Assembly: GCA_051599415.1 (NCBI GenBank)
Contig: AP039692.1
Span: forward strand, 62,001 to 126,000
Length of the DNA: 64,000 bases
Direction of reading: 5' to 3'
From: Savitreella phatthalungensis
Lineage: Eukaryota
How positions within the stretch are numbered: the stretch's first letter is position 1; every line of letters starts with the position of its first letter. The notes under the pieces were generated by a model that had not been told where the DNA came from, searched no databases, and saw only the letters and a program-made list of their open reading frames with translations. Shown here one piece after another: positions 15,470 to 32,357 of this stretch. The translations under genes and the position numbers were made by a program.

Positions 15470-18132
15470 ATGATGTCAATTTTCAGGACACGTCTTCTTT
15501 TGCTATATTGGTGTGTGTCCACTCTCGCAACCATATTGATAGAAAGTGCGTGTCCAGCTCGTGGCCGACATTCTCGCTGGAACGCTTCGTACGCTTCGGC
15601 CTGCTCGCCGGCAAGAGCCTGCTCAAGAACTCGGCATTGTCCCGAGTGATGGCTCAACCGCCTGCGCTGGCTCGTGATGAGCGACCGTACGAGTTACACC
15701 GTGGCAGGCATATTTTGGCAACCGAAGTGCCCGAGGACGCCCCAGAGCTTGTCGTTCGCTGGCACTTTGCCACAGATGTACCGAAGCGCAGGCAGTATGC
15801 CGACAAGCCAAGCGCAGCTACTACCAGTAAGCCCAAATTGCCAACCCAATTCACCCCGTTCTCGGCTGCAGATTCACGTGCGATTGAGGACGCATACCTG
15901 ACGAGTAAGACAGCGGCCGACGATGAACATCTGCCAAGAATACCTGTGAATGAGGATCACTTGTTTGAAGTCAACATTCCAGATCGGGAGCTTGGGGCCA
16001 TCTACTGGCAAGGCCCAGTCTATGAGATTCGTCGCGGCACCTGGCACTTTGCTGATGGTTCTAGCCTAAAACCTTGTGACGAAGTCCTTGCGACCCAGGT
16101 CGAGGATGGCTATCTTAAAATCAAGCCATATCGAACGGGCAATGAAATGACCAGAGTCAGCCAAGACGCCCAGAAGGCCTTCAGCTCGGGTGATCAACTG
16201 GCAGATGTGTCAAAGGACAGTAGATTGGTTGCATCATCTGAAGTCAAGGCGACAGGAGCAGACCTCGCCCGCAGGAAGTCCTTGATCGAGGGCAAGACTG
16301 GGATAGATCAACCGAAAGATCACATGCGGCCGTTGTTTGGCGCATATGCTGGCAAGTATGTACTCTACACCAGTCCTTCAACGGCATGGCTGCTGTCTAA
16401 CGATTTGTATGGCAAAATCTCCTCGTCTTTCTTTCAAAGTATCACAAGAGGAGTGCACATGGGAGGTCAGAAGCTGAAGCGCGGTTTTTCGGATGCCGAG
16501 CAGAGAAAGGCCGCTGCAGCCGCCGCGCAAGCTGCAGAAGAAGCGCAGCAGAAGAAGGAAGAGCAACAGGAACCGCTTACGGAGAGCCTTGAGCAGGCTA
16601 GCTCTGCCAAGGAAGCAGATGCCGGCACTGGCAAGCCATCTGCAGTATCTGGTGAATACGAGCAAGGAGATGACCCTGATCGGAAGATTACGCACTTGAT
16701 TCTTTGCTGCCATGGCATTGGGCAGAAGCTTGGTGAGCGGATGGAAAGCGTCAATTTTGTGCACGACATCAACGTCCTACGGAGAAGCATCAAGAAGAGC
16801 TTCAAGCATTCGCGAGACTTGCAGGCGCTGGCAAGCGACAAGAACAATTGCGGTGTTCAAGTGCTACCAGTGCAGTGGCGACAGGCGATCAAATTTGGAA
16901 TGGCTAGAGATTATGCTGAAGACGAGCAGGATATCAGCAATACAACTGAACATGAAGAGGTTCCTACATTGCAGGATATCACCGTGGAAGGGGTTCAAAC
17001 GATCCGTAACATCGTTTCCGATGTGCTACTTGACATCTTGCTATATTACCAGCCAGCGTACAGAGAGCAGATTGTTCGGGCGGTGTCAGGCGAAATGAAT
17101 CGCATCTACCGACTGTTCAAGTCATATCATCCAGATTTCAACGGCAAGATATCGATCTTGGGCCACTCTTTGGGTTCGGCCATCGCTTTTGACATCCTCT
17201 GTCGACAGCCAGTCGATGAAGGCATGCACAAAATTCCAAAGGAGGTTCATATGGTCGAGAAGAGATTGGCCTTGGATTTTCCAGTGGAAAACTTCTATGC
17301 AGTCGGCAGCCCCATCGGACTCTTCCAGATGTTGCGCGGCAAGACTATCGCAGGCCGGGAACTGCTGCGAGAAGCGCCGCAGGAAGGCACGCCTTTCTCT
17401 CCGCTCGGTCCGATTCACGACCCATTGGAGACAGCGTCTTACAGCGCGTACGCTCAGGCCGCCCACGAGGCCGGTCATGTTCCTTCATCATATCCAAAAT
17501 GCAGAAACATGTACAACATCTTCCACCCGTCAGACCCAGTCTCGTACCGTATCGAACCTCTGGTCTCGAAGCATGCGGCAAAACTCAAGCCATATCCTCT
17601 ACCGTACACAAAAGCGGGCTTCCGACAACAGCTCGTCGGGCTGTCCAGCATCCCTCAAAGGGCGTACGAAGGGGCGAGCTCGTATTGGTCAGCAATTAGG
17701 TCATCTGTGACGAACTCTATTGTCTCAAGGTCGCTTGGCTATGGCGGTATGGACGACAAGTCCTCTGTTCCGCAGCAGCAAAATCAGTCTTCCCAAACAC
17801 AGCAGCTCAATATAGCAGTCCCTGGAACGTCGGCCGGTCAGGAGACATTGTACGCAGCTTTCGAGCGCACTTATGGCGCCAGCTCGCCCTCTCGCCCGGC
17901 ACAGGCCGACTCGAGTCGTGATCCGAAGGCCAGCGCATCTGGTGATGCAAAGTTACGAGCTTTGAATCGGACAGGGCGAATCGATTTCGCTATACAGGAG
18001 GATGTCTTTGGCTCTTCATACGTGTCGGCAATCTCTGCACATCTTCAGTACTGGTCTGACCTCGATTTGGCGTACTTCATTCTGTCGTATCTTAGTGTCG
18101 AGCCGGAGCAACGACGTCCTGATCGACACTGA
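15470..18132 (+). CDS. DDHD-domain phospholipase A1 (Ddl1-like)
   Basis: HLILCCHGIGQ, GHSLGS lipase motif, NIFHPSDPVSYRIEPL, GRIDF..SAHLQYW. Possible first exon 15470-15510 with a 47-nt intron 15511-15557 (GTGTGT..CAG); first unspliced ATG is 15649. Confidence 0.9.
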
Positions 18133-19288
18133 AGGCTTCCTTGACGGGACCGCCGCCAAGACACATGTCACCAGCATAAAGCGCTAAATGCTGACCAGGG
18201 GTGACAGCGAATTGAGGCGCAGAAAAACGAATGTCGACTTTGTCTCCGCGGACGGAGACACGACAGGCCACCGCAACCTCTTCACGATGCGGATCCGACT
18301 GGGCACGTGGGAGCATGTTACCTCGATGCCGTACTTGGCAAAGAAGCTCCCCTTCCCTAAGCTCTCCAGACCAATGGAACTGCTCGACAGTGCAACGATC
18401 GAACCACAGCATAGGATGCTGTCTTCCTCTGACGAGTGTGATGACGGCGGGCTCAATATGTTTACCTATCGTCTTGCGCGCCACATACCATTTGCCCTTC
18501 GTCAGCATGTTGCCTTGAGGTAGTTGCAAACCCGAGGCCTCCCCGATGGTCGTCGCCCAGATACCGCGATGGTCGGATGTCAGTTTGTTGCCGTTCTCGT
18601 CAGTGTAAATTACCGGGCCCGGTTCGAGGTAGTTGGACAAGAAGCTGCTGAATCTCCGGGTATCGGGCTCAACGAAGCATAGACCTTGAGACTCGCGTCT
18701 GCGAGAGACCTTGCTAGGCAGATCTAACTCACGAGCCATAGCGCGCACTTCGTCTTTCGTGTGTTCTGCAAGCGGGAAAATCATCTTGGCCATTGCAGAC
18801 GGTATGACGGTCGACAGGAAAAAGCTTTGATCCTTGTGACGATCCTTTGGCCGGCAGAGTCGACCGTGTCGTACATCAGCATAGTGGCCAGTGGCCAGCC
18901 ACCAGGGCCGTTGTTCTTCACGCTTGGTCAAAATCGACACGAGCGCTCCACATTTCACATAGCGATTGCAGGCGACATCCGGATTTGGCGTCCCGCCAGC
19001 TTTATAGACGTCGAGTGCCGGGGCAAAGACTTTATGCCAATACTCCCGGGACAGATCCACGAGTTCGCAAGGGATATCGAGCTGGGAACAAACAGCTCGA
19101 ACGTCGCGATAGTCCCGCTCGCTGGTGCATGCTGTTCCTGCCTCCTGCTCACGCCAATTACGCATGAAGACACCTCTGATGTCACTATAGCCAGCACGCA
19201 CGAGCAATCCGGCAGAAACTGACGAGTCGATCCCGCCCGACATGGCGACATAGATGCGATCCGTTTTGGCCAAAGCTCTTCCAAACAT
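18092..19288 (-). CDS. SLM3: Mitochondrial tRNA 2-thiouridylase MnmA/Mtu1
   Basis: VAMSGGIDSSV, TPNPDVACNR, ATGHYA, KDQSFFL, ESQGLCFV, AVTPGQ..CLGGG. Confidence 0.93.
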   Translation of the reverse strand: MFGRALAKTDRIYVAMSGGIDSSVSAGLLVRAGYSDIRGVFMRNWREQEAGTACTSERDYRDVRAVCSQLDIPCELVDLSREYWHKVFAPALDVYKAGGTPNPDVACNRYVKCGALVSILTKREEQRPWWLATGHYADVRHGRLCRPKDRHKDQSFFLSTVIPSAMAKMIFPLAEHTKDEVRAMARELDLPSKVSRRRESQGLCFVEPDTRRFSSFLSNYLEPGPVIYTDENGNKLTSDHRGIWATTIGEASGLQLPQGNMLTKGKWYVARKTIGKHIEPAVITLVRGRQHPMLWFDRCTVEQFHWSGELREGELLCQVRHRGNMLPRAQSDPHREEVAVACRVSVRGDKVDIRFSAPQFAVTPGQHLALYAGDMCLGGGPVKEAFSVDQDVVAPARH

Positions 19289-19725: not shown

Positions 19726-20283
19726 ATGTCTTTTGACCGTGATTTGCGACGCAAAGAGCAGGCGAAGTACGATGAGCGTTTCGATTCCATGTGCGAGGAA
19801 GCGCGCGCTTGGCTACAAGAAGTGCTCGGGCGATCAGTCGAGGGAGATCTGATCGATTCGCTACGCGATGGATCGATCCTCTGCGAGGTATGCAACGTCA
19901 TCATTCCCGGATCAGTCCGTGGACGAAAGAGTGGCATGCCGTTCGTGCAGATGGAGAACATCGGGATGTTTCTCTCATTTGCACGGGACAAGCTGGGAAT
20001 CCCTGCACATGACATGTTCCAGACCGTAGACCTATACGAGCGGAAGAATACTTACCAGGTCATTCAGTGTATCCATACACTTTCACGATATGCTCAGACA
20101 AAGGCTGGACTCGAGGTGCGTGGGCTCGGTCCGAAGATGAGCACATCCAATTCACGTGACTTCACGAAAGAACAACTGGCTGAAGCTCGCAACACAGTGA
20201 ATACATTCCAATATGGCAAGCACACAGGCTCTACCAATGTCCTGCGCTCTTCTCGGAGAGATCCAGCAGGAAATATCTATTGA
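19726..20283 (+). CDS. Calponin/transgelin (Scp1/Stg1) actin-binding protein
   Basis: CH domain (LRDGSILCE, MPFVQMENI, FQTVDLYERKN) plus calponin repeat FQYG; ATG 19726. Confidence 0.88.
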   Translation: MSFDRDLRRKEQAKYDERFDSMCEEARAWLQEVLGRSVEGDLIDSLRDGSILCEVCNVIIPGSVRGRKSGMPFVQMENIGMFLSFARDKLGIPAHDMFQTVDLYERKNTYQVIQCIHTLSRYAQTKAGLEVRGLGPKMSTSNSRDFTKEQLAEARNTVNTFQYGKHTGSTNVLRSSRRDPAGNIY

Positions 20284-20538
20284 GCTCGCTGAAGAAAATC
20301 CGTCATCTTGTTCTCTTTCTTCGGAAGCGGAGGACGGGACCTGCGCAAGCGAGAGACTGGTTCGGCGTACACCGTAGGCGGTGTCATGCGTGGTGGCGAC
20401 CATTCGCGAGCACAGACCCGTGGGGGATGATTGCCAAAGAGCTCCTCTTCTAGATCATCCACATCGTCGTCGAGAGTGCTGATCATGTTGTTCCCGACCT
20501 GCTCTCGTAGCGTTGTCTCCAGTGCCTCAAACTCGCCA
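20277..20538 (-). CDS. Putative alternative last exon of the SRAP-Tad3 gene
   Basis: 45-nt intron 20539-20583 (GTACGT donor, GCTGAC branch, TAG acceptor) removes two in-frame stops and joins an open frame ending KKENKMTDFLQRAQ*. Confidence 0.55.
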
Positions 20539-20573
20539 CTACCGGTCAGCACAGACTCAGTTCGTCAGAATTG

Positions 20574-22526
20574 TCAAACGTACTCATCAGGTTCGAGCGA
20601 TTCGGCTCTCGTCTCCATCCAGCCGCCAAATACGGCGAAACGATGGTTCAACTCTTTGCGATAATGGATGCCGTACGAACTGGCGAATCCGCCACGCTCG
20701 GACGCCTTCGCGAAGAAGACTCGCTCTGCGCGCGCATGTAGAAGAGCCATACAGCACATGGTGCATGGTTCATGCGATATAAAGATCGTCAGGCCAGTGC
20801 ACAAGTACTGCGCAGCCGTCTCAGGCTGTTCGATGCGTCGTACAACCTCGTTCGCGGCAACCGCTCCCACAAGCTCCATTACAGCATGCTTGAGAGGGTG
20901 GCCTGAGCTTGATCTGGCATCCTTTGCGCGCGCAAGTTCTTCTCCAGTTTCAGCATTCCATGCGATGGCGGCCACGGGTAGGTCGCCGTCAGTGGTTTCC
21001 TGTGCAGCGAAACTGAGACATTGCTCCATGACAGCCTGACACCTTTCCAGGTCAGCTCGAGTCATGTTGACACGTCTTGTTGCAGGGACTCGCCAATTTA
21101 AGGGCCATCGTTCTTTCCAAGCATCGAATTGCTTCTGGCTCAGAGCCGGAAACCTGGAAACTTCAACCTCTTCGAGCTTAGCCTCGGGTACGCCATGATC
21201 GTCAAGCGCCTGTCGCAGTTCGTGCTCGGTCATCTCATCTGCTTTGCAAAGCAGAATTTGCACCAGCCCATCAGGATCATTACGTCGCGACCTGACTTCC
21301 CCGTCCTCGACCTTCACTCGTTTGGCGTCTTCTATCGGCCTCATGCGCTTGAGATGGTTCAGATCTCTCGACCTGAGCTTTTTAGCGATGAAGTCGACAA
21401 TCTTACCTGTCTCCGCCTTTCGCAACGTCAACGTTCGCACGACCAGGCCTTCAAATGGTCTCGTCTCGAGATGAGACGGAATGAAGTCGAACGGCAACTC
21501 GTTCTCGGGGACAAGGTCCTCCTTTGCCGGTCCTTTCGCGTGATGGGGATGGAGATGTTTCTCTGGCATCGGAGCGTTATTCTCAGTTGTCTCTTTGCGG
21601 TCGGTCTCATCATCGGTAGGCTGGTCTATCTCGTCTTCATGCTTCGCCACGGGACTTCTGGACCTGGCAAAGTAGTTTGCGATGTTATCCTTATTCTCTT
21701 TGGAGTCGATTGGCACAATGAAGCTCGGCGAGTCGTTGCCGACTTTCCCAACGTCCTTCTTGACAGCATAGCTCTCAAGCTTTGAAGGATCGAATGGCCG
21801 GAGCATTGCGGCGCACTCGTCATCCCATGTCTGCCCATCTAGCCATTTGGCGATCAATTGAGCATCGCACTTCTCCTCGAACATCAGAGGCATTCTATCG
21901 TGCAGCCAACCCATCCCCTCAGCTGCTGCAGTTGTGATTATTGTAAATGTCCACAGGGGTGGACTGTCTTCAGGCAGAGTTTCATAGCGAACACTGTCAT
22001 AAAGTCCACCCAAAAGCATCATCCCTCCATCTTTCCGTCTTGTAAAGAACGGCAACCTCTCCCGACCTCGTTTTTGCCACTCGTAATATCCTTGAACGGG
22101 AACGATGCATCTCTTTCGCTCCTTCATGGTGTTCCACATGCTCCTGCCACCTTCGATGAGGGAGTCGTCGCGACAGTTGATTGTCTTAAGCTGCGATGCG
22201 CTCTCGGGTGGGCGCTTGGTCCAGAACGGCACAAGCCCCCATTTCATCGACTGCAGGACTCGCGTGGGTCGGGCTGTATCCGTGTCCTCGGTGTTAGTAC
22301 CACGCGTGACGGTAGAGGACTCTGCTGTTTTGCCATCAGTGCGCTCGCTTGCGTCTGACGGACCATGCACAGATCGGTAGACGGCCTGATAGGTCTGAGG
22401 AGCAGCATTGTATGTGGGTCTGCGTGGAGTGTCAGAGTCGCGCACATCATCGACCCCAAGTCCTCCACTCTCCAGCTGCTGAGCTATGTATGCAGACTCA
22501 AATGACTGGGCAAACCTGCCACACAT
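20574..22526 (-). CDS. SRAP/HMCES abasic-site processing domain fused in frame to tRNA adenosine deaminase subunit Tad3 (650 aa)
   Basis: N-terminal MCGRF, MKWGLVPFW, INCRDDS, RCIVPVQGYYEW, WLHDRMP (SRAP); then PFDFIPSHLETR, HLKRMR, HPLKHAVM, HEPCTMCCMALLHAR, LNHRF (Tad3); no stop between the two. Confidence 0.88.
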   Translation of the reverse strand: MCGRFAQSFESAYIAQQLESGGLGVDDVRDSDTPRRPTYNAAPQTYQAVYRSVHGPSDASERTDGKTAESSTVTRGTNTEDTDTARPTRVLQSMKWGLVPFWTKRPPESASQLKTINCRDDSLIEGGRSMWNTMKERKRCIVPVQGYYEWQKRGRERLPFFTRRKDGGMMLLGGLYDSVRYETLPEDSPPLWTFTIITTAAAEGMGWLHDRMPLMFEEKCDAQLIAKWLDGQTWDDECAAMLRPFDPSKLESYAVKKDVGKVGNDSPSFIVPIDSKENKDNIANYFARSRSPVAKHEDEIDQPTDDETDRKETTENNAPMPEKHLHPHHAKGPAKEDLVPENELPFDFIPSHLETRPFEGLVVRTLTLRKAETGKIVDFIAKKLRSRDLNHLKRMRPIEDAKRVKVEDGEVRSRRNDPDGLVQILLCKADEMTEHELRQALDDHGVPEAKLEEVEVSRFPALSQKQFDAWKERWPLNWRVPATRRVNMTRADLERCQAVMEQCLSFAAQETTDGDLPVAAIAWNAETGEELARAKDARSSSGHPLKHAVMELVGAVAANEVVRRIEQPETAAQYLCTGLTIFISHEPCTMCCMALLHARAERVFFAKASERGGFASSYGIHYRKELNHRFAVFGGWMETRAESLEPDEYV

Positions 22527-22812
22527 AGCCGTGCGCCGACGTCCAATGTGCTCATATGCTGTTCCTTGAGTGACGCTGATACGTAATTTAACAAACCGTA
22601 TTGGCTTCACGTTGAACTGGTCTCCGATGTTATGCACGATCGTTTGAGGGAACACACAATACTGTGATCGCTTGACCACATCGATCCGCCTCATAGCATC
22701 TGCAGGAATAGCAGAACACACAAAATACATGGACGTCGGAAATGGCTCGCAACCCATGCGAAAAAAAGGTTAGGGTCAGGGTTACGATCTCTAGTGAATG
22801 ACGAGGGTATAG

Positions 22813-25800
22813 CTACCAGTACGAGCCGCTACCGTATCTGTGCTCGAGTGAGGAAACCACGGGCACATTAATAGGCTGGAAGGCGGCTCGGTACCTGTCA
22901 CCTGAAGATGAGCGGTCTGCAATGATGGCTTGAACACCGCCTGCTCGTGGCGGCAGCGGTAGATCCTGTTGCGTATGCATCTGTTGGTAAGGTTGATGAG
23001 TCGGTTCTTGTGTAGCGGGAATCTTACGAGACATCTGTGGTCCGCGAGAGCGCGATCGCGAGCGCATTCTTTGCTGGTTCGAATGCTTTCGAAGTCGCTC
23101 TTCCTCAACTTGGCACTCCAAAGCACCGACTGCAGAAGATTGTTGGTAGTAACCTGGATTATACCTAAGCGGCAGTTGCTGTCCTCGATAGTAACGAACG
23201 GGCTCACGAGCGACAGCTTCGGAATAGTGGCTTGAGACATCGGATGGGAACCTGTTGTGCATCGCGGACCAGTCCGGCGTACTGCTGAAAGGCTCATCGT
23301 GTGACAGGATGGCCATGTGACTGGCTGGCGAGGCGTCTTGCTCTGGCCACGCAATTTTGTGCTTTAGCTGCGACTCGCTTCGAGATCGCGAAGGTGATTT
23401 TTTATCGCTTGGCCTCTCAGTCGCTCGTCCGCAGTCGCCTGCAGCTCCCGCAGGCCTGAACTGGCTGATATCGTACTCTTGCCGAGTCGCGTACTTCATC
23501 GGCATACTGACCTGGGCATGGTCGAGCACAGCCTGGGATGAAAGCTCGGCCGTCGAGTTAACAGCCTGTACTATTGATGATTCTACTGGGCGACCGAGAG
23601 CGCGCCCGCCTGCGCTTTTGGTCTGGGTAGGGTCAATAGTCAACTCGTGAAACTGATGTAGCCCGATCGGGTCGATGCATTGATTCGGCCCTTTGTGCTG
23701 TTGCTGCTGACCTGCAGCAGTCTCTGCTGTGACAGCCTCGAACAGCTGCATAGCTTTGTGATCGTCACGACATTCGAGCGTCTGCACATGCTGTAGCATA
23801 GGAAAGAGTTCGGACGTGTCGACTGATACAGGTCGCCTCTCGGCTGCCTTGGGAGGAAGTGGCGGAACATCCGATAAACTGCTCGAGTCAGACTGCGAAG
23901 ATGAGCTCGACGATTGGATCCGTGGCACAGAAGTCCTGGTCACAGTGGGAGGCATAGCGTTTCTAGACCGTGCAGCTGGTGCTGGCACTGGCACTGACGC
24001 TGGTACCGACACAGCTGTGGCAGATTGGACTGGCATCGTGGCACTGAGTGCAGTCATCGCATGAGCCACTGTGGCGAGCATAGCGGGATAAGCTTCGCCA
24101 GGAATTTGCGTCGGAGGCTGCTCAATCGTTGCGGGCATCGACTTCTGCGCATCCTCTGATGGCGAGGGGATGTCAGCTCTCTCAGTACCGTTACCCTTGC
24201 GACGTCTGTCCTTCATCAGAGAACCCAAACGCTTCATGAGCGATGGTCTGCGGACATTCTGACCGTGAGTTCCATCGTGCTTATCATCTGTGGCGCAACC
24301 GCTCATGATTGCGCTGTGCGACGATTCTAAGGATCTGTTTTCGGGCTCGACAATGGTAGGTTTCCGCGAGAGTTCCACAGGAGCTTCTGAGAGCTTCTCG
24401 AATGAGGGAGCTCGGGCGAGATGTTGCTCGATCTTTTGCTGTGCATCATAGCGCCGTGTCCACATCATGGCCGCGCGCAGCTCAGGACGAATCGTGCCTG
24501 GATCAACGCCGGGGTCAGCATGTTTTAAGGATTGTGCAGATTTGGCGCCCGTGCTGGTCGAGCTGCAGCTGGCGTCCACTTTGGACCTCCCAAGCTTGCG
24601 AATCTTGCGCTCTGCGTCGGCAAGATTGATCACGTCAGCAGGAACATCTGTCAACAACGGCGCATCATGTTTATTGCGCCTCTTCTCTGCACGCGGCGCC
24701 TCAGGCATGACTTCCTCCACTATTAGCCATGATGATGACTCGCGGAGCTCGAGCACAACGCATCGGCCAAACATGCCCTTGATCGCCTGACTTGTCTCGT
24801 ATGTTAGGGAGGATAACCAGGCCAAGCGAAGTGATTTGTCGATTTCGATAAGACGCAGATCAACGAGCAGAGAATCGTCCGCAGAAGACATACTGTCGCC
24901 GCTTTTCACACTGCCAGAACACGATGGGACGCGCATTTGCAGGGGCAAGAAATCTTGTTTGATACGCCGATCAGCATCCTCGGGAAAGCCCGCGTGTGAA
25001 AAGTTGCCCCAATCGACAGTGACGGGACGCTTGTGGCCACGCTTGGGTTTCGCAGCGGTGACTGGCCCCGAATCGTCGAAACCAAGTTGTCTGAAGCGCA
25101 TCCACTCATCCCCCGCTTGGTTCAAGTGACTGAGGAATTGGTCTTCATCTGGATTGCCAAGCATGTCTTGCATAACTTTGATCGTCCGCAGGCATTCGTC
25201 AGAGAGATTGTAGGCAGCCTCTTGACTGCACGAAAATCCTTCAAGTACAGGATACTGATGACGTCGTTTGTGACCGGCCGCCCGCTTCACGAGAGAAAGC
25301 GGGGAGCGTGAGAGAGCATTTGAACTGAGAACGAGCTTGACTGTCTCGTTCGCAATTGGAGCTTGAGGGGGATATGCCGTAGCCTCAAGTAGTGACTCGA
25401 GCGCCCGCGCTAAGCCCAGCTTGCTGTTTGCCTTCTGCTCTCGAAGATACCCGAAGAAGACGTGCTTCATGGCTTGACTCTGCGCCGCGTATGTCTGATA
25501 TCCAACCATGAATCCTGCGCCGGATGTCACAGGCTCGCTGGGGAAGAACCACAGGGAAATGGACCGCACGAGTTCATCCGCATCGTGGCCGTTGTACTTG
25601 GTATGCGCGCAAACGCCTGAAATGAGATCCAGCAAAGCAAAGAAACAAGAACAATGAGGCTGTTCCATGATGAGAGTCTTCCAAACATCTGTGAACATCT
25701 GATCAGTTGTCTCGCGCGGCGCATCGTCTTCGAAGCGCTGCCAGATACGGTACTTCTGGACGTCGATTAGTCCATTCGGCACTCTGGAGAAGATCCAGCG

Positions 25801-30962: not shown

Positions 30963-32357
30963 ATGCTGCGTCGAGACCGGCCTCCGCGAGGGCAGCGTCG
31001 GCCACAGCAGCCTCCGGTCGGCTTGTTACCTACCGCATGTCTGGAGTGGCTTCCTCAAAAGGCTCGCTTCTGCCGCTTCGAGCCAAGGGAGGGAGGATTC
31101 TGCTCGATGCACGTCGGACCGATGAAGGAGACACCTCGTGTAGAGACGAAGCAGCAGTGGTACGAAAAGGAATGCAATATTAGTAAGACGTATCACTCCT
31201 TTGATGATGATGCACGGGTCGAAGTCAATGATCGCGAGCTCGGGTGTCCTGATCCTTTGGGTTCTTCACCATTCGACCTCGTGCTCGCACGTCTCTCATC
31301 TCTCATATGGCTCGATGGGGACGAGTATTGCGGCATTGAGACGCGAATCCTCACTCTCGAGGGTGAGCCGCTTACTGCGGACGATTCCGTCGATGCGGGC
31401 CGCGAGCAGGCGGCACGTCACGAGAGACAGGGAGCCAGTATTCTTGGGCAGCTGACCTCTCGAGATGTTCTATCTTCAATTCTCGAGGCAGGCACTATCA
31501 TCGTGGAATGGGGCTGCGGCACTGCAGAGCTGTCCCACCAGCTAGCAGCTGCCTTTCTTAGGAACACGCCACGACCGGCGGATGTGACGCAGCATACGCA
31601 GAGTGACTCATTCAAACTTGCCGCATTTGTGCTAATCGATCGCGCTTCCGGTCTACGTCGGCGGGATCTGAAAATCCAACGAGAAGCAGTGGAATGGGCT
31701 ACAGGGAATCTGCCCAGCAATCTGACGCAAGCGCCTGAGCTTCGATCGCCGTCCCCGTTCAGTGTAGAGCGAGCACGCATTGACATTTCGGATCTTCGCT
31801 TCGATATTCTGCTTGGTCACACTCGTAAGAGGTTAAGCAAGCAGGACAAGGTGCCGTTGATTCATGTCAGTAAGCATTTATGTGGCGCAGCGACGGATCT
31901 CACGTTGGCTGCGCTTACACGGCGAGAGCCTGGCAGTGAAAGTCCGTCCGGGGCATTATCGATCGCGCTATGCTGTCACCATCGCTGCGAATGGACAGCT
32001 CTACCGGAATTGATGCGATCAATCTTTGCCGGCACAAAGCCCTTGATGGCCGACGGGACATGTGTGGTAATTGCAGAGAATGCTCAAGAATTCACGACTC
32101 TCGCAAGAATGTCATCCTGGGCAACGAACTCTGAAGCCGTTCCGCGGGCTGGACAACCTGATAGGAACACATCTACTACGTGCGGCAAGCTATCCTTTCA
32201 ACAGCGGCTGGTCATCGGTCGCAGGTGCAAGCGCGCGATTGATTTGGCCCGTTGTTCGTATCTGCGCATGGCAGGTACGAGCTTCACAGAGATTCAGCTT
32301 GTCAGATATTCAAGGGAGCATTGGACTCGCGAGCCTTATGCATTAGTCGCGTGGTGA
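30963..32357 (+). CDS. TRM13: tRNA position-4 2'-O-methyltransferase Trm13
   Basis: N-terminal CCCH finger (C.EWLPQKARFCRF..FCSMH), IVEWGCGTAELS, IDISDL, SKHLCGAATDLTL, IALCCHHRCEW. Confidence 0.9.
   Translation: MLRRDRPPRGQRRPQQPPVGLLPTACLEWLPQKARFCRFEPREGGFCSMHVGPMKETPRVETKQQWYEKECNISKTYHSFDDDARVEVNDRELGCPDPLGSSPFDLVLARLSSLIWLDGDEYCGIETRILTLEGEPLTADDSVDAGREQAARHERQGASILGQLTSRDVLSSILEAGTIIVEWGCGTAELSHQLAAAFLRNTPRPADVTQHTQSDSFKLAAFVLIDRASGLRRRDLKIQREAVEWATGNLPSNLTQAPELRSPSPFSVERARIDISDLRFDILLGHTRKRLSKQDKVPLIHVSKHLCGAATDLTLAALTRREPGSESPSGALSIALCCHHRCEWTALPELMRSIFAGTKPLMADGTCVVIAENAQEFTTLARMSSWATNSEAVPRAGQPDRNTSTTCGKLSFQQRLVIGRRCKRAIDLARCSYLRMAGTSFTEIQLVRYSREHWTREPYALVAW

What the first reader, a model, noticed from the sequence alone, without database searches (positions are those of the whole stretch)
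20574..22526. SRAP/HMCES abasic-site protector fused in frame to the Tad3 tRNA-deaminase subunit
Seen: one stop-free 650-codon frame. The first ~320 aa are an SRAP domain with the catalytic set intact (Cys2 in MCGRF, Glu in YYEW, His in WLHDRMP). The remainder is a full Tad3: N-domain PFDFIPSHLETR, pseudo-catalytic HAV in place of HAE, PCxxC, and a typical ...DEYV* end. An internal ATG at 21569 (MPEKH...) sits where a stand-alone Tad3 would begin. Established: HMCES/YedK crosslinks to AP sites in ssDNA through Cys2. Tad2/Tad3 makes I34 in tRNA, trypanosome ADAT2/3 can deaminate ssDNA, and Tad2/3 performs mRNA A-to-I editing in some filamentous ascomycetes. These two proteins are normally separate genes, and I know of no described fusion. 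Inference: either a deaminase complex carries its own AP-site shield, coupling deamination to protection of the resulting lesion, or two genes share one frame with Tad3 made from an internal promoter.
Basis: partly seen in the sequence, partly recalled or inferred. Interest (0 to 1): 0.85.

Follow-up and report, generated by a model that had tools for sequence, protein, structure and literature searches.

The report
SRAP–Tad3 fusion gene, conserved in Taphrinales-like yeasts
One fungal gene joins a DNA abasic-site shield (SRAP/HMCES type) to the non-catalytic Tad3 subunit of the essential tRNA wobble-inosine deaminase; about ten diverged relatives keep the same join, but it is unknown whether the two activities work together.

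Summary
On the minus strand, 22526..20574 is one stop-free 650-codon frame. Residues 1-262 match the whole SRAP model (E 1e-60). The C-terminal half is closest to solved ADAT3/Tad3. It is not an assembly or annotation accident. Nine other proteins at 49-58% identity have the same architecture, including Protomyces lactucae-debilis ORY83870.1. Their linkers vary from 41 to 83 residues and none has a stop. The catalytic Cys2/Glu/His of SRAP and the H..PCxxC zinc site of Tad3, with V/I in place of the catalytic Glu, are kept in all that cover them. The linker is the proximal part of the ancestral SRAP tail. The internal Met320 sits in an SRAP-tail motif, ENNAP[ML]P, not at a Tad3 start. Most likely it is one bifunctional polypeptide, and the fusion is locked in because Tad3 is essential. 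Functional coupling of deamination with AP-site shielding is not shown. No paper describing the fusion was found. One contig from a second run splices out a canonical 45-nt intron that spans the stop codon. This hints at a longer C-terminal isoform.

The parts
20574..22526 (-). Whole SRAP-Tad3 coding frame: 650 codons plus the TGA stop at 20574-20576
   Evidence: Translation; ORF list; both Pfam domains on one chain
21741..22526 (-). SRAP domain, residues 1-262. Cys2 is at 22521-22523, Glu149 at 22080-22082 and His209 at 21900-21902.
   Evidence: PF02586 E 1.2e-60 over the full model. Aligns with HMCES and YedK across the GxYEW and HxRxP motifs, and the N-terminus is identical to YedK's MCGRFAQS. 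Residues are invariant in homologues.
21492..21740 (-). Linker, residues 263-345, derived from the proximal SRAP tail. It holds a PIP-like KENKDNIANYF (21669-21701), ENNAPMP with Met320 (21564-21584) and an HPxH[AP]K-like patch.
   Evidence: The same motifs occur in stand-alone fungal SRAP tails. Length varies from 41 to 83 residues between homologues with no stop. It has the highest codon-usage score of the gene, 0.399 per codon.
21087..21491 (-). Tad3 N-terminal domain (tRNA-binding in ADAT3/Tad3), about residues 346-480, starting at LPFDFIPSHLETR
   Evidence: phmmer match to yeast Tad3 chain 7bv5_C residues 35-310. End-to-end alignment with S. japonicus Tad3.
20577..21086 (-). Tad3 pseudo-catalytic CDA domain, residues 481-650. 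H-A-V is at 20880-20888 and P-C-T-M-C at 20754-20768. The C-terminus is ...LEPDEYV.
   Evidence: PF00383 at residues 496-606. Best solved relatives are mouse ADAT3 7nz7_B at 9e-27 and yeast Tad3. H547, C588 and C591 are invariant, and position 549 is V or I, never E.
20539..20583 (-). Candidate 45-nt intron (GTACGT...GCTGAC..GGTAG). Its donor lies inside codon 648, and it contains the last two codons and the stop.
   Evidence: A contig of run X2 skips exactly these 45 bases. Sequence read. It is one of 6 strict intron-pattern matches in the window.
20277..20538 (-). Coding-like stretch joined in frame by that splice: 86 further codons plus a stop. It could be an alternative C-terminal extension or a small separate gene starting at ATG 20486.
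   Evidence: Frame read. The codon-usage score is 0.286 in the spliced frame against -0.47 and -0.32 in the other two frames. No Pfam match, no homologue and no Atlas hit.

Best explanation
This is a genuine gene fusion that a fungal lineage has kept, probably Taphrinales or near relatives. It is translated as one polypeptide of about 73 kDa.

The N-terminal SRAP domain keeps the free Cys2 plus the Glu and His. [quoted passage not shown] The C-terminal part is a complete Tad3: an N-terminal tRNA-binding domain plus a zinc-binding, catalytically dead CDA domain. It should pair with Tad2 to make inosine-34 in tRNA.

The two are tethered by a 41-83-residue segment, presumably flexible, that is the proximal half of the old SRAP tail. 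The order SRAP then Tad3 leaves both functionally required ends free: the SRAP N-terminal Cys and the Tad3 C-terminal zinc cap.

Once TAD3 lost its own start and promoter, its essentiality would keep the frame open. Conservation of the join therefore does not by itself prove that the two activities cooperate. I take the two modules to work largely independently but to be co-expressed and co-localised.

Shown: the architecture, its conservation and the intact key residues. Inferred: a single product, both activities, and independence of the modules.
For: There is one open frame with both Pfam domains. Among the 120 best of 959 hits, 10 proteins including the query carry PF02586 plus PF00383, and the other 110 carry SRAP only. 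The alignment of the 10 has 57% mean column identity.

SRAP is the best-conserved segment, with mean pairwise identity 65.6%. The linker has 52.4%, Tad3-N 43.4% and Tad3-CDA 60.5%. E149, H209, H547, C588, C591, Y649 and V650 are present in 10 of 10. Cys2 is present in 8 of 10; the other two rows lack the N-terminus, and P0121, the 640-aa cluster mate of one of them, starts M-C-G-R. Linker lengths are 41-83 residues and all are in frame.

An eleventh copy, P0127, is a truncated gene model that starts inside SRAP and runs through the linker into Tad3.

The C-half searched against 1.84 billion representatives gave the fused cluster first. The nearest named stand-alone protein was S. japonicus Tad3 at only 35% identity, so no close stand-alone Tad3 was found.

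The 8 fused SRAP domains fall on one side of a branch (SH-aLRT 99) against 50 stand-alone ones, which is consistent with one origin (quick tree with long-branch warnings).

Contigs from two runs are colinear through the linker with no indel. They come from the same sample as the window, so they are not independent.

There are 28 other ATGs between ATG 22526 and ATG 21569, so scanning ribosomes could not reach Met320.

Tad2 and Tad3 are both essential (PMC11087585 and PMC4615748, passages seen). The ADAT3 C-terminus caps its zinc site through a near-terminal Asp (PMC8216470). That Asp aligns with the D of LEPD here.
Against: No RNA or protein data exist here, so a single 73-kDa product is inferred from frame conservation only (one search listed no RNA holder).

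Met320 is kept in 9 of 10 homologues, which would also fit an internal start.

The whole genome is not held. I could not show that this is the only TAD3 or the only SRAP gene, nor find TAD2.

A contig of run X2 removes the stop codon by a canonical 45-nt splice, so the true C-terminus of the main product in this organism is uncertain.

The AlphaFold model was too poor to say anything about contacts between the domains.

Conservation of the SRAP active site argues against the domain being a mere passenger. It therefore leaves room for real coupling, which my reading plays down.
Confidence: 0.8

Rival explanations
1. Functional coupling. The SRAP module brings the Tad2/Tad3 deaminase to single-stranded DNA, or shields abasic sites that arise after deamination and glycosylase action. 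The fusion would then be a deaminase with a built-in lesion protector.
For: HMCES protects against damage started by a deaminase (AID plus UNG) in mammals (PMC9067407, passages seen). ADAT2/3-type enzymes have been reported to deaminate DNA (abstract of PMC10354150 in the listing). In Fusarium the Tad3 N-domain is where an accessory protein, Ame1, docks to change substrate choice (PMC11087585), and SRAP is attached just upstream of that domain. The SRAP catalytic residues are fully conserved in the fused proteins.
Against: Tad3 is the inactive subunit, and A-to-I on tRNA creates no abasic site. No evidence of DNA editing in this lineage was available. Tad2/3 subunits carry other extra N-terminal domains in related fungi, so accretion looks promiscuous: a dead kinase-like domain on S. 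pombe Tad2 (PMC8217354 abstract) and an A_deaminase domain on Saitoella Tad3 models. SRAP and Tad3 homologues are not neighbours in any of 57 metagenome loci (0 of 57).
Confidence: 0.1
2. There are two products from one frame. Besides or instead of the full-length protein, an internal transcription start gives a Tad3-only protein beginning at Met320.
For: Met320 is present in 9 of 10 homologues and lies 24 residues before the Tad3 LPF motif. FgTAD2 and FgTAD3 in Fusarium use alternative transcription starts (PMC11087585).
Against: The Met is part of the ENNAP[ML]P motif of SRAP tails. It is Leu in stand-alone SRAPs and in fused P0003. It has C at -3. If Tad3 had its own start, nothing would keep a linker of 41-83 variable residues free of stops and frameshifts in 10 of 10 lineages. 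Leaky scanning is excluded by 28 intervening ATGs.
Confidence: 0.12
3. The main product in this organism is longer. Splicing of the 45-nt intron at 20539-20583 removes E-Y-V-stop and adds 87 residues ending in a PIP-like KENKMTDFL. This would restore a C-terminal PCNA-type box that the SRAP tail lost in the fusion.
For: The contig of run X2 skips exactly these 45 bases. Their ends on the gene strand are GTACGT...CTGAC...TAG. The joined frame stays open for 86 codons with a coding-like codon score of 0.286, against 0.249 +/- 0.116 for in-frame 86-codon pieces of the window's long genes and about -0.35 to -0.42 off frame. Stand-alone fungal SRAPs end in a [ST]Q[RK]ITxFF box that the fused proteins lack.
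Against: The kind of run X2 is only guessed ('DNA?'), so the skip is not proven to be RNA splicing. All 10 homologues, P0127 and S. japonicus Tad3 end at the same Val followed directly by a stop, which speaks for the unspliced C-terminus. The 86-residue stretch has no Pfam match, no homologue and no Atlas hit. An open frame scores somewhat positive anyway: the upstream 77 codons score 0.115. The splice could instead be a 5'-UTR intron of a small downstream gene.
Confidence: 0.25
4. It is an artefact: a misassembly, or a lost stop in a pseudogene or merged gene model.
For: None beyond the general frequency of merged gene models. The only checks of the sequence itself come from the same sample.
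Against: The same contiguous frame occurs in 9 other proteins from separate records at 49-58% identity, plus a truncated eleventh. Both halves show strong residue conservation. The codon-usage score is coding-like throughout, and highest in the linker.
Confidence: 0.02

Closest known systems
HMCES / YedK (SRAP family, PF02586)
   Same: It matches the full SRAP model. Cys comes directly after the initiator Met. The Glu and His motifs align with those of HMCES and YedK. [quoted passage not shown]
   Different: The distal tail, with the terminal [ST]Q[RK]ITxFF box of stand-alone fungal SRAPs, is replaced by a whole Tad3 protein. No cross-linking was tested here.
Tad3 / ADAT3, the non-catalytic subunit of the tRNA A34 deaminase
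   Same: It has an N-terminal domain plus a CDA domain with H..PCxxC and V in place of the catalytic Glu. An acidic residue near the C-terminus aligns with the zinc-capping Asp of mouse ADAT3. The nearest named stand-alone relative is S. japonicus Tad3.
   Different: It carries about 345 extra N-terminal residues, an active-looking DNA-repair domain plus a linker. Stand-alone Tad3 proteins in the hit list are about 280-400 residues long.
Accessory domains and partners on fungal Tad2/Tad3
   Same: They show that the Tad2/3 enzyme tolerates or exploits added modules. Examples are the S. pombe Tad2 N-terminal kinase-like domain, Fusarium Ame1 docking on Tad3-N, and gene models joining Tad3 to an A_deaminase domain in Saitoella or to a SET domain in Cryptotrichosporon (PMC8217354 abstract; PMC11087585).
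   Different: Here the added module is a DNA-lesion sensor with all catalytic residues intact. It is not a dead domain or an RNA-targeting partner. I did not check whether the Saitoella and Cryptotrichosporon models are true fusions.

Membership tests
SRAP (PF02586; HMCES/YedK) | Full-length match to the family model above its curated cut-off | tested here: met
   205.2 bits against a cut-off of 27.1; residues 1-262 cover model positions 1-214 of 214
SRAP (PF02586; HMCES/YedK) | Catalytic Cys directly after the initiator Met, giving a free N-terminal Cys after Met removal | tested here: met
   M-C-G-R-F at 22526. Cys2 is present in 8 of 10 aligned homologues; the other 2 lack the N-terminus, and P0121 restores it for one of them. 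An in-frame upstream ATG exists at 22757 and its use is untested.
SRAP (PF02586; HMCES/YedK) | Conserved Glu and His of the active site | tested here: met
   GYYEWQ aligns with GFYEWQ of HMCES. LHDRMP aligns with IHHRMP of HMCES and IHDRRP of YedK. Both residues are invariant in 10 of 10. That these are the catalytic residues is recalled from the literature.
SRAP (PF02586; HMCES/YedK) | Covalent cross-link to abasic sites in ssDNA | not testable with these tools
   Needs biochemistry
Tad3 / ADAT3 | CDA-fold domain with zinc ligands H ... PCxxC | tested here: met
   PF00383 at residues 496-606, 40.9 bits against a cut-off of 25. H547, C588 and C591 are present in 10 of 10.
Tad3 / ADAT3 | Catalytic Glu of the HAE motif replaced (pseudo-catalytic) | tested here: met
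   Position 549 is V in 3 and I in 7 of 10, never E. The V replacement is described as typical of Tad3 in PMC11087585.
Tad3 / ADAT3 | Tad3-type N-terminal domain ahead of the CDA domain | tested here: met
   phmmer aligns residues 369-633 with yeast Tad3 7bv5_C residues 35-310. S. japonicus Tad3 aligns from its residue 4 to its end.
Tad3 / ADAT3 | Nearest named relatives are Tad3/ADAT3, not Tad2 or TadA | tested here: met
   PDB order: ADAT3 9e-27, Tad3 4e-20, TadA-type 4e-8 and weaker. The named top hits are Tad3/ADAT3 annotations.
Tad3 / ADAT3 | Heterodimer with Tad2 and I34 formation | not testable with these tools
   There is no Tad2 in the window and no genome is held
Tad3 / ADAT3 | It is the organism's only TAD3 (orthologue rather than extra paralogue) | tested here: inconclusive
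   No close stand-alone Tad3 was found in two database searches. The genomes of the fusion-bearing species could not be searched.

The most novel reading that the evidence does not exclude
The join is functional. In one version the SRAP module places the Tad2/Tad3 deaminase on single-stranded DNA, or guards lesions that follow its action there. In the other, suicide cross-linking of SRAP to abasic sites removes the essential Tad3 from the pool. Heavy AP-site load would then lower tRNA inosine-34 and stall translation and the cell cycle, giving a direct wire from DNA damage to decoding. The title of Tsutsumi et al. [quoted passage not shown] An alternative spliced C-terminus with a PIP-like box could add replication-fork targeting.
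Probability: 0.1. Interest if true: 0.85.

Novelty: new variant of a known kind. Interest (0 to 1): 0.55.

Why it matters
Conserved fusions are classic pointers to functional links. HMCES is already tied to deaminase-triggered abasic sites in mammals. A natural, lineage-wide fusion of an intact SRAP domain to a subunit of a deaminase complex is therefore a ready-made test case. It can be used to ask whether a tRNA-editing enzyme and a DNA-lesion shield ever cooperate, or whether an essential gene can simply become trapped behind a repair gene.

It also defines conserved short motifs in fungal SRAP tails: KENKxNIANFF, ENNAP[ML]P and a terminal QRITxFF-like box. These are candidates for partner binding.

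If the two modules turn out to be independent, the case is still a clean example of a fusion whose domain order is dictated by one partner needing a free N-terminus and the other a free C-terminus.

Tried and rejected
- **Own genome.** A search for second TAD3, SRAP or TAD2 copies was not possible because no genome is held.
- **RNA evidence.** No RNA holder was listed. This says nothing about expression.
- **Read laying.** X1 and X2 are from the sample that may be the window's source, so their agreement is not independent. X3 and X5 gave only 151-226-nt pieces on the Tad3 part, plus one unlike 40-nt piece. These are too little for any claim about strains or habitat.
- **JGI metagenome contigs.** The scan returned 57 loci, all 47% identity or less in the best segment. 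None carries both halves (0 of 57 by my tblastn), so no orthologous DNA was obtained to test whether the 3' intron or the extension is conserved.
- **The 86-residue extension.** It has no Pfam family, no homologue at E 0.1 or better (a word-based search of limited reach) and no Atlas hit.
- **AlphaFold2 on the 10-sequence alignment.** Mean pLDDT was 44.8 and residues 1-335 were all below 50. This is unusable, so no fold search or domain-contact reading was attempted.
- **Earlier findings of this scan.** Nothing came up by sequence, place or words.
- **Names for the unnamed homologues.** None was found. Placing the organism in or near Taphrinales rests only on the single named fused homologue.
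- **Aravind et al. 2013.** 'Deaminase' and 'fusion' do not occur in the main text. The held supplement is a 1,510-character stub, so its architecture lists were not seen.
Full report
**What is there.** The finding's coordinates hold, but the frame is on the minus strand. Window 22526 down to 20577 reads as 650 codons from M-C-G-R-F to ...D-E-Y-V, and TGA follows at 20576-20574. Pfam places a complete SRAP domain at residues 1-262 (PF02586, E 1.2e-60, model positions 1-214 of 214). It places a cytidine/deoxycytidylate-deaminase zinc-binding region at residues 496-606 (PF00383, E 2e-10).

Against solved structures the N-half is nearest to SRAP proteins: 2f20, human HMCES 5ko9/6oe7 and E. coli YedK. 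The first eight residues are identical to YedK's. The GYYEWQ and LHDRMP motifs align with the corresponding motifs of HMCES and YedK.

The C-half, taken from Met320, is nearest to mouse ADAT3 (7nz7_B, 9e-27) and yeast Tad3 (7bv5_C, 4e-20, chain residues 35-310). TadA-type enzymes score much lower.

The surroundings are ordinary fungal nuclear genes. The neighbours are an Msb1/Mug8-domain gene upstream, a calponin-homology gene converging downstream and an MnmA/MTU1-type tRNA thiouridylase beyond it. The rest of the window holds exosome, proteasome, ISWI, Sec1 and TRM13 genes among others. There is no Tad2.

**Is it real.** A search of the 5.8-billion-protein collection with the whole protein gave 959 hits among 7,999 scored candidates. 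Among the 120 best listed, ten including the query carry both Pfam domains and cover about the whole query. The other 110 are stand-alone fungal SRAP proteins of about 360-520 residues. Only one fused protein has a name: Protomyces lactucae-debilis ORY83870.1, a 'hypothetical protein' of 609 residues, from Taphrinales.

The ten align colinearly at 49-79% pairwise identity, and 49-58% to the window protein. Glu149, His209, His547, Cys588, Cys591 and the terminal Tyr-Val are present in 10 of 10. Cys2 is present in 8 of 10. The other two rows are N-terminally truncated calls, and the 640-residue cluster mate of one of them (P0121) starts M-C-G-R. Position 549 is Val in 3 and Ile in 7, never Glu.

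The stretch between the NFF motif and the Tad3 LPF motif ranges from 41 to 83 residues. It is in frame without a stop in all ten. So many length changes, all multiples of three, are what selection for read-through predicts.

An eleventh copy is P0127, filed under Persea americana and presumably a fungal contaminant. It is a truncated model that begins inside the SRAP domain and continues through the linker into Tad3.

Codon usage is coding-like along the whole frame and highest in the linker, at 0.399 per codon. In-frame 86-codon pieces of the window's long genes score 0.249 +/- 0.116. Contigs from two runs agree with the window through the linker, with no indel. They come from the sample that may be the window's own source, so this only excludes a gross assembly slip.

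**Anatomy of the join.** I aligned three fused proteins with seven stand-alone fungal SRAPs. The stand-alone proteins have three tail features:
- a KENKxNIANFF motif just after the domain. This looks PIP-like to me. HMCES is described as having three PIP motifs in its C-terminal region (PMC9067407, passage seen);
- in 3 of the 7, an ENNAPLP-type motif, followed by a KRxHP-like patch;
- at the very end, a [ST]Q[RK]ITxFF box.

The fused proteins keep the first two features and an HPxH[AP]K-like patch. They then run straight into the Tad3 N-terminus and lack the terminal box.

It is Leu in the stand-alone proteins and in fused P0003. S. japonicus Tad3, the closest named stand-alone Tad3 (35% identity), begins about 15-18 residues further downstream in the alignment. 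Met320 has C at -3 and is preceded by 28 other ATGs after the first one. Only an internal transcription start could make a Tad3-only protein.

**Is it the lineage's Tad3.** A full HMMER pass of the C-half over 1.84 billion representatives gave 2,837 hits at E 0.001 or better. The top hits were:
- the fused cluster;
- P0127;
- S. japonicus Tad3 (35% identity);
- an unnamed 280-residue protein (40% identity);
- Saitoella models (36% identity);
- chytrid and other early-diverging fungal Tad3/ADAT3.

The word-based search likewise found no close stand-alone form. This fits the fused gene being the only TAD3 of these species. I could not search their genomes, so it is not shown.

The SRAP parts of 8 fused proteins sit on one side of a branch (SH-aLRT 99) against 50 stand-alone proteins. 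This is a quick tree with long-branch warnings, and two truncated rows were left out. It is consistent with a single origin, but it mainly reflects taxonomy.

In 57 more distant metagenome loci, SRAP and Tad3 homologues never lie together (0 of 57).

**How it most likely works.** Tad2 and Tad3 are both essential. Tad3's CDA domain binds Tad2 and its N-domain binds tRNA (PMC11087585 and PMC4615748, passages seen). In mouse ADAT3 the next-to-last residue, an Asp, coordinates the zinc, and the last residue caps the site (PMC8216470). That Asp aligns with the D of LEPD here.

SRAP needs its Cys at the very N-terminus; this is established knowledge, with the N-terminal processing discussed in PMC3765255. 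SRAP-then-Tad3 is therefore the one order that leaves both critical ends free.

My best reading (0.8) is a single bifunctional polypeptide. An AP-site cross-linking head and a Tad3 body that pairs with Tad2 are joined by a tail-derived tether, presumably flexible. Once TAD3 depended on the SRAP start codon, any frameshift in the linker would be lethal. That explains the conservation of the join without requiring cooperation. The high conservation of SRAP (mean pairwise identity 65.6%, the best of the four segments) shows that the head is still used.

**Rivals.** Real coupling is attractive for three reasons:
- HMCES guards abasic sites that follow AID and UNG action;
- ADAT2/3 enzymes have been reported to act on DNA (abstract in the listing);
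- the Tad3 N-domain is a docking site that can redirect the enzyme, as Ame1 does in Fusarium.

Against it, nothing here tests coupling. Tad3 is the dead subunit. Tad2/3 subunits in related fungi carry other unrelated add-ons. I give it about 0.1.

An additional Tad3-only product from an internal start gets about 0.12. An artefact gets about 0.02.

**An unexpected extra.** The contig of run X2 is colinear with the window over 20584-22900 and 20400-20538 but skips 20539-20583. X2 is from the same sample, and its library kind is not on record. On the gene strand the 45 skipped bases are GTACGT...GCTGAC..GGTAG, a textbook short fungal intron. It is one of six strict matches to that pattern in the window.

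The donor sits inside codon 648. Splicing would therefore delete E-Y-V and the stop, and continue in frame for 86 more codons to a stop at 20279-20277. The added stretch ends with a PIP-like KENKMTDFL.

That frame has a coding-like codon score of 0.286, against -0.47 and -0.32 in the other two frames. However, it has no Pfam match, no homologue and no Atlas hit. All homologues also end at the same Val-stop.

I rate a real alternative C-terminal isoform at about 0.25. A 5'-UTR intron of a small downstream gene, or a minor splice, are the alternatives. This needs RNA data.

**Novelty and weight.** Five full-text searches found no paper on such a fusion:
- SRAP + Tad3;
- HMCES + ADAT3;
- SRAP + deaminase + domain architectures;
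- DUF159 + deaminase;
- SOS response-associated peptidase + adenosine deaminase + fusion.

The founding SRAP paper does not mention deaminases in its main text, and its architecture supplement could not be seen. The protein is already in public databases as an unnamed hypothetical.

I class this as a new variant of known kinds: a new, conserved architecture made of two well-known families. It has moderate interest as it stands and high interest if the modules prove to be coupled.

Noticed in passing
window 20539-20583 (-) and 20277-20538 (-): One contig of run X2 splices out a canonical 45-nt intron that contains the gene's last two codons and its stop. The splice joins in frame to 86 coding-like codons that end in a PIP-like KENKMTDFL. 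The kind of run X2 is not on record.
   Followed up: partly
window 22527-22757 (-): The frame stays open 77 codons upstream of M-C-G-R-F, with in-frame ATGs at 22757, 22730 and 22694. If these were used they would bury the catalytic Cys2. There is no Pfam match, the codon score is lower (0.115), and homologues start at MCGR. The upstream Msb1-like gene ends only 56 nt before ATG 22757.
   Followed up: partly
P0130, P0276, P0277 (Saitoella coloradoensis and S. complicata): Three gene models from two Saitoella species join an adenosine-deaminase-type domain (PF00962) to a Tad3 whose N-terminal motif closely resembles that of the fused clade. It could be another Tad3 N-terminal fusion in Taphrinomycotina or a merged model.
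   Followed up: no
P0203 (Cryptotrichosporon argae KAL7420180.1): A 643-residue model annotated tad3 carries a SET domain ahead of the deaminase domain. It may be another add-on or a merged model.
   Followed up: no
window 18092-19288 (-) and 30963-32357 (+): Two other tRNA-modification genes lie near the fusion gene: an MnmA/MTU1-type 2-thiouridylase (PF03054, two genes downstream) and TRM13 (about 8 kb away). This is probably coincidence.
   Followed up: no
alignment A3, tails of stand-alone fungal SRAP proteins: Fungal SRAP tails share short conserved motifs: KENKxNIANFF right after the domain, ENNAPLP in some, and a terminal [ST]Q[RK]ITxFF box. These look like partner-binding (PCNA-type) motifs. 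I did not find them discussed in the passages I read.
   Followed up: partly
window 20649-20874 and 20797-21074: Short contigs (151-226 nt, at most one difference each) from run X5 (phyllosphere metagenome) and run X3 (labelled organism B) match the Tad3 part. This is too little to name a habitat.
   Followed up: no
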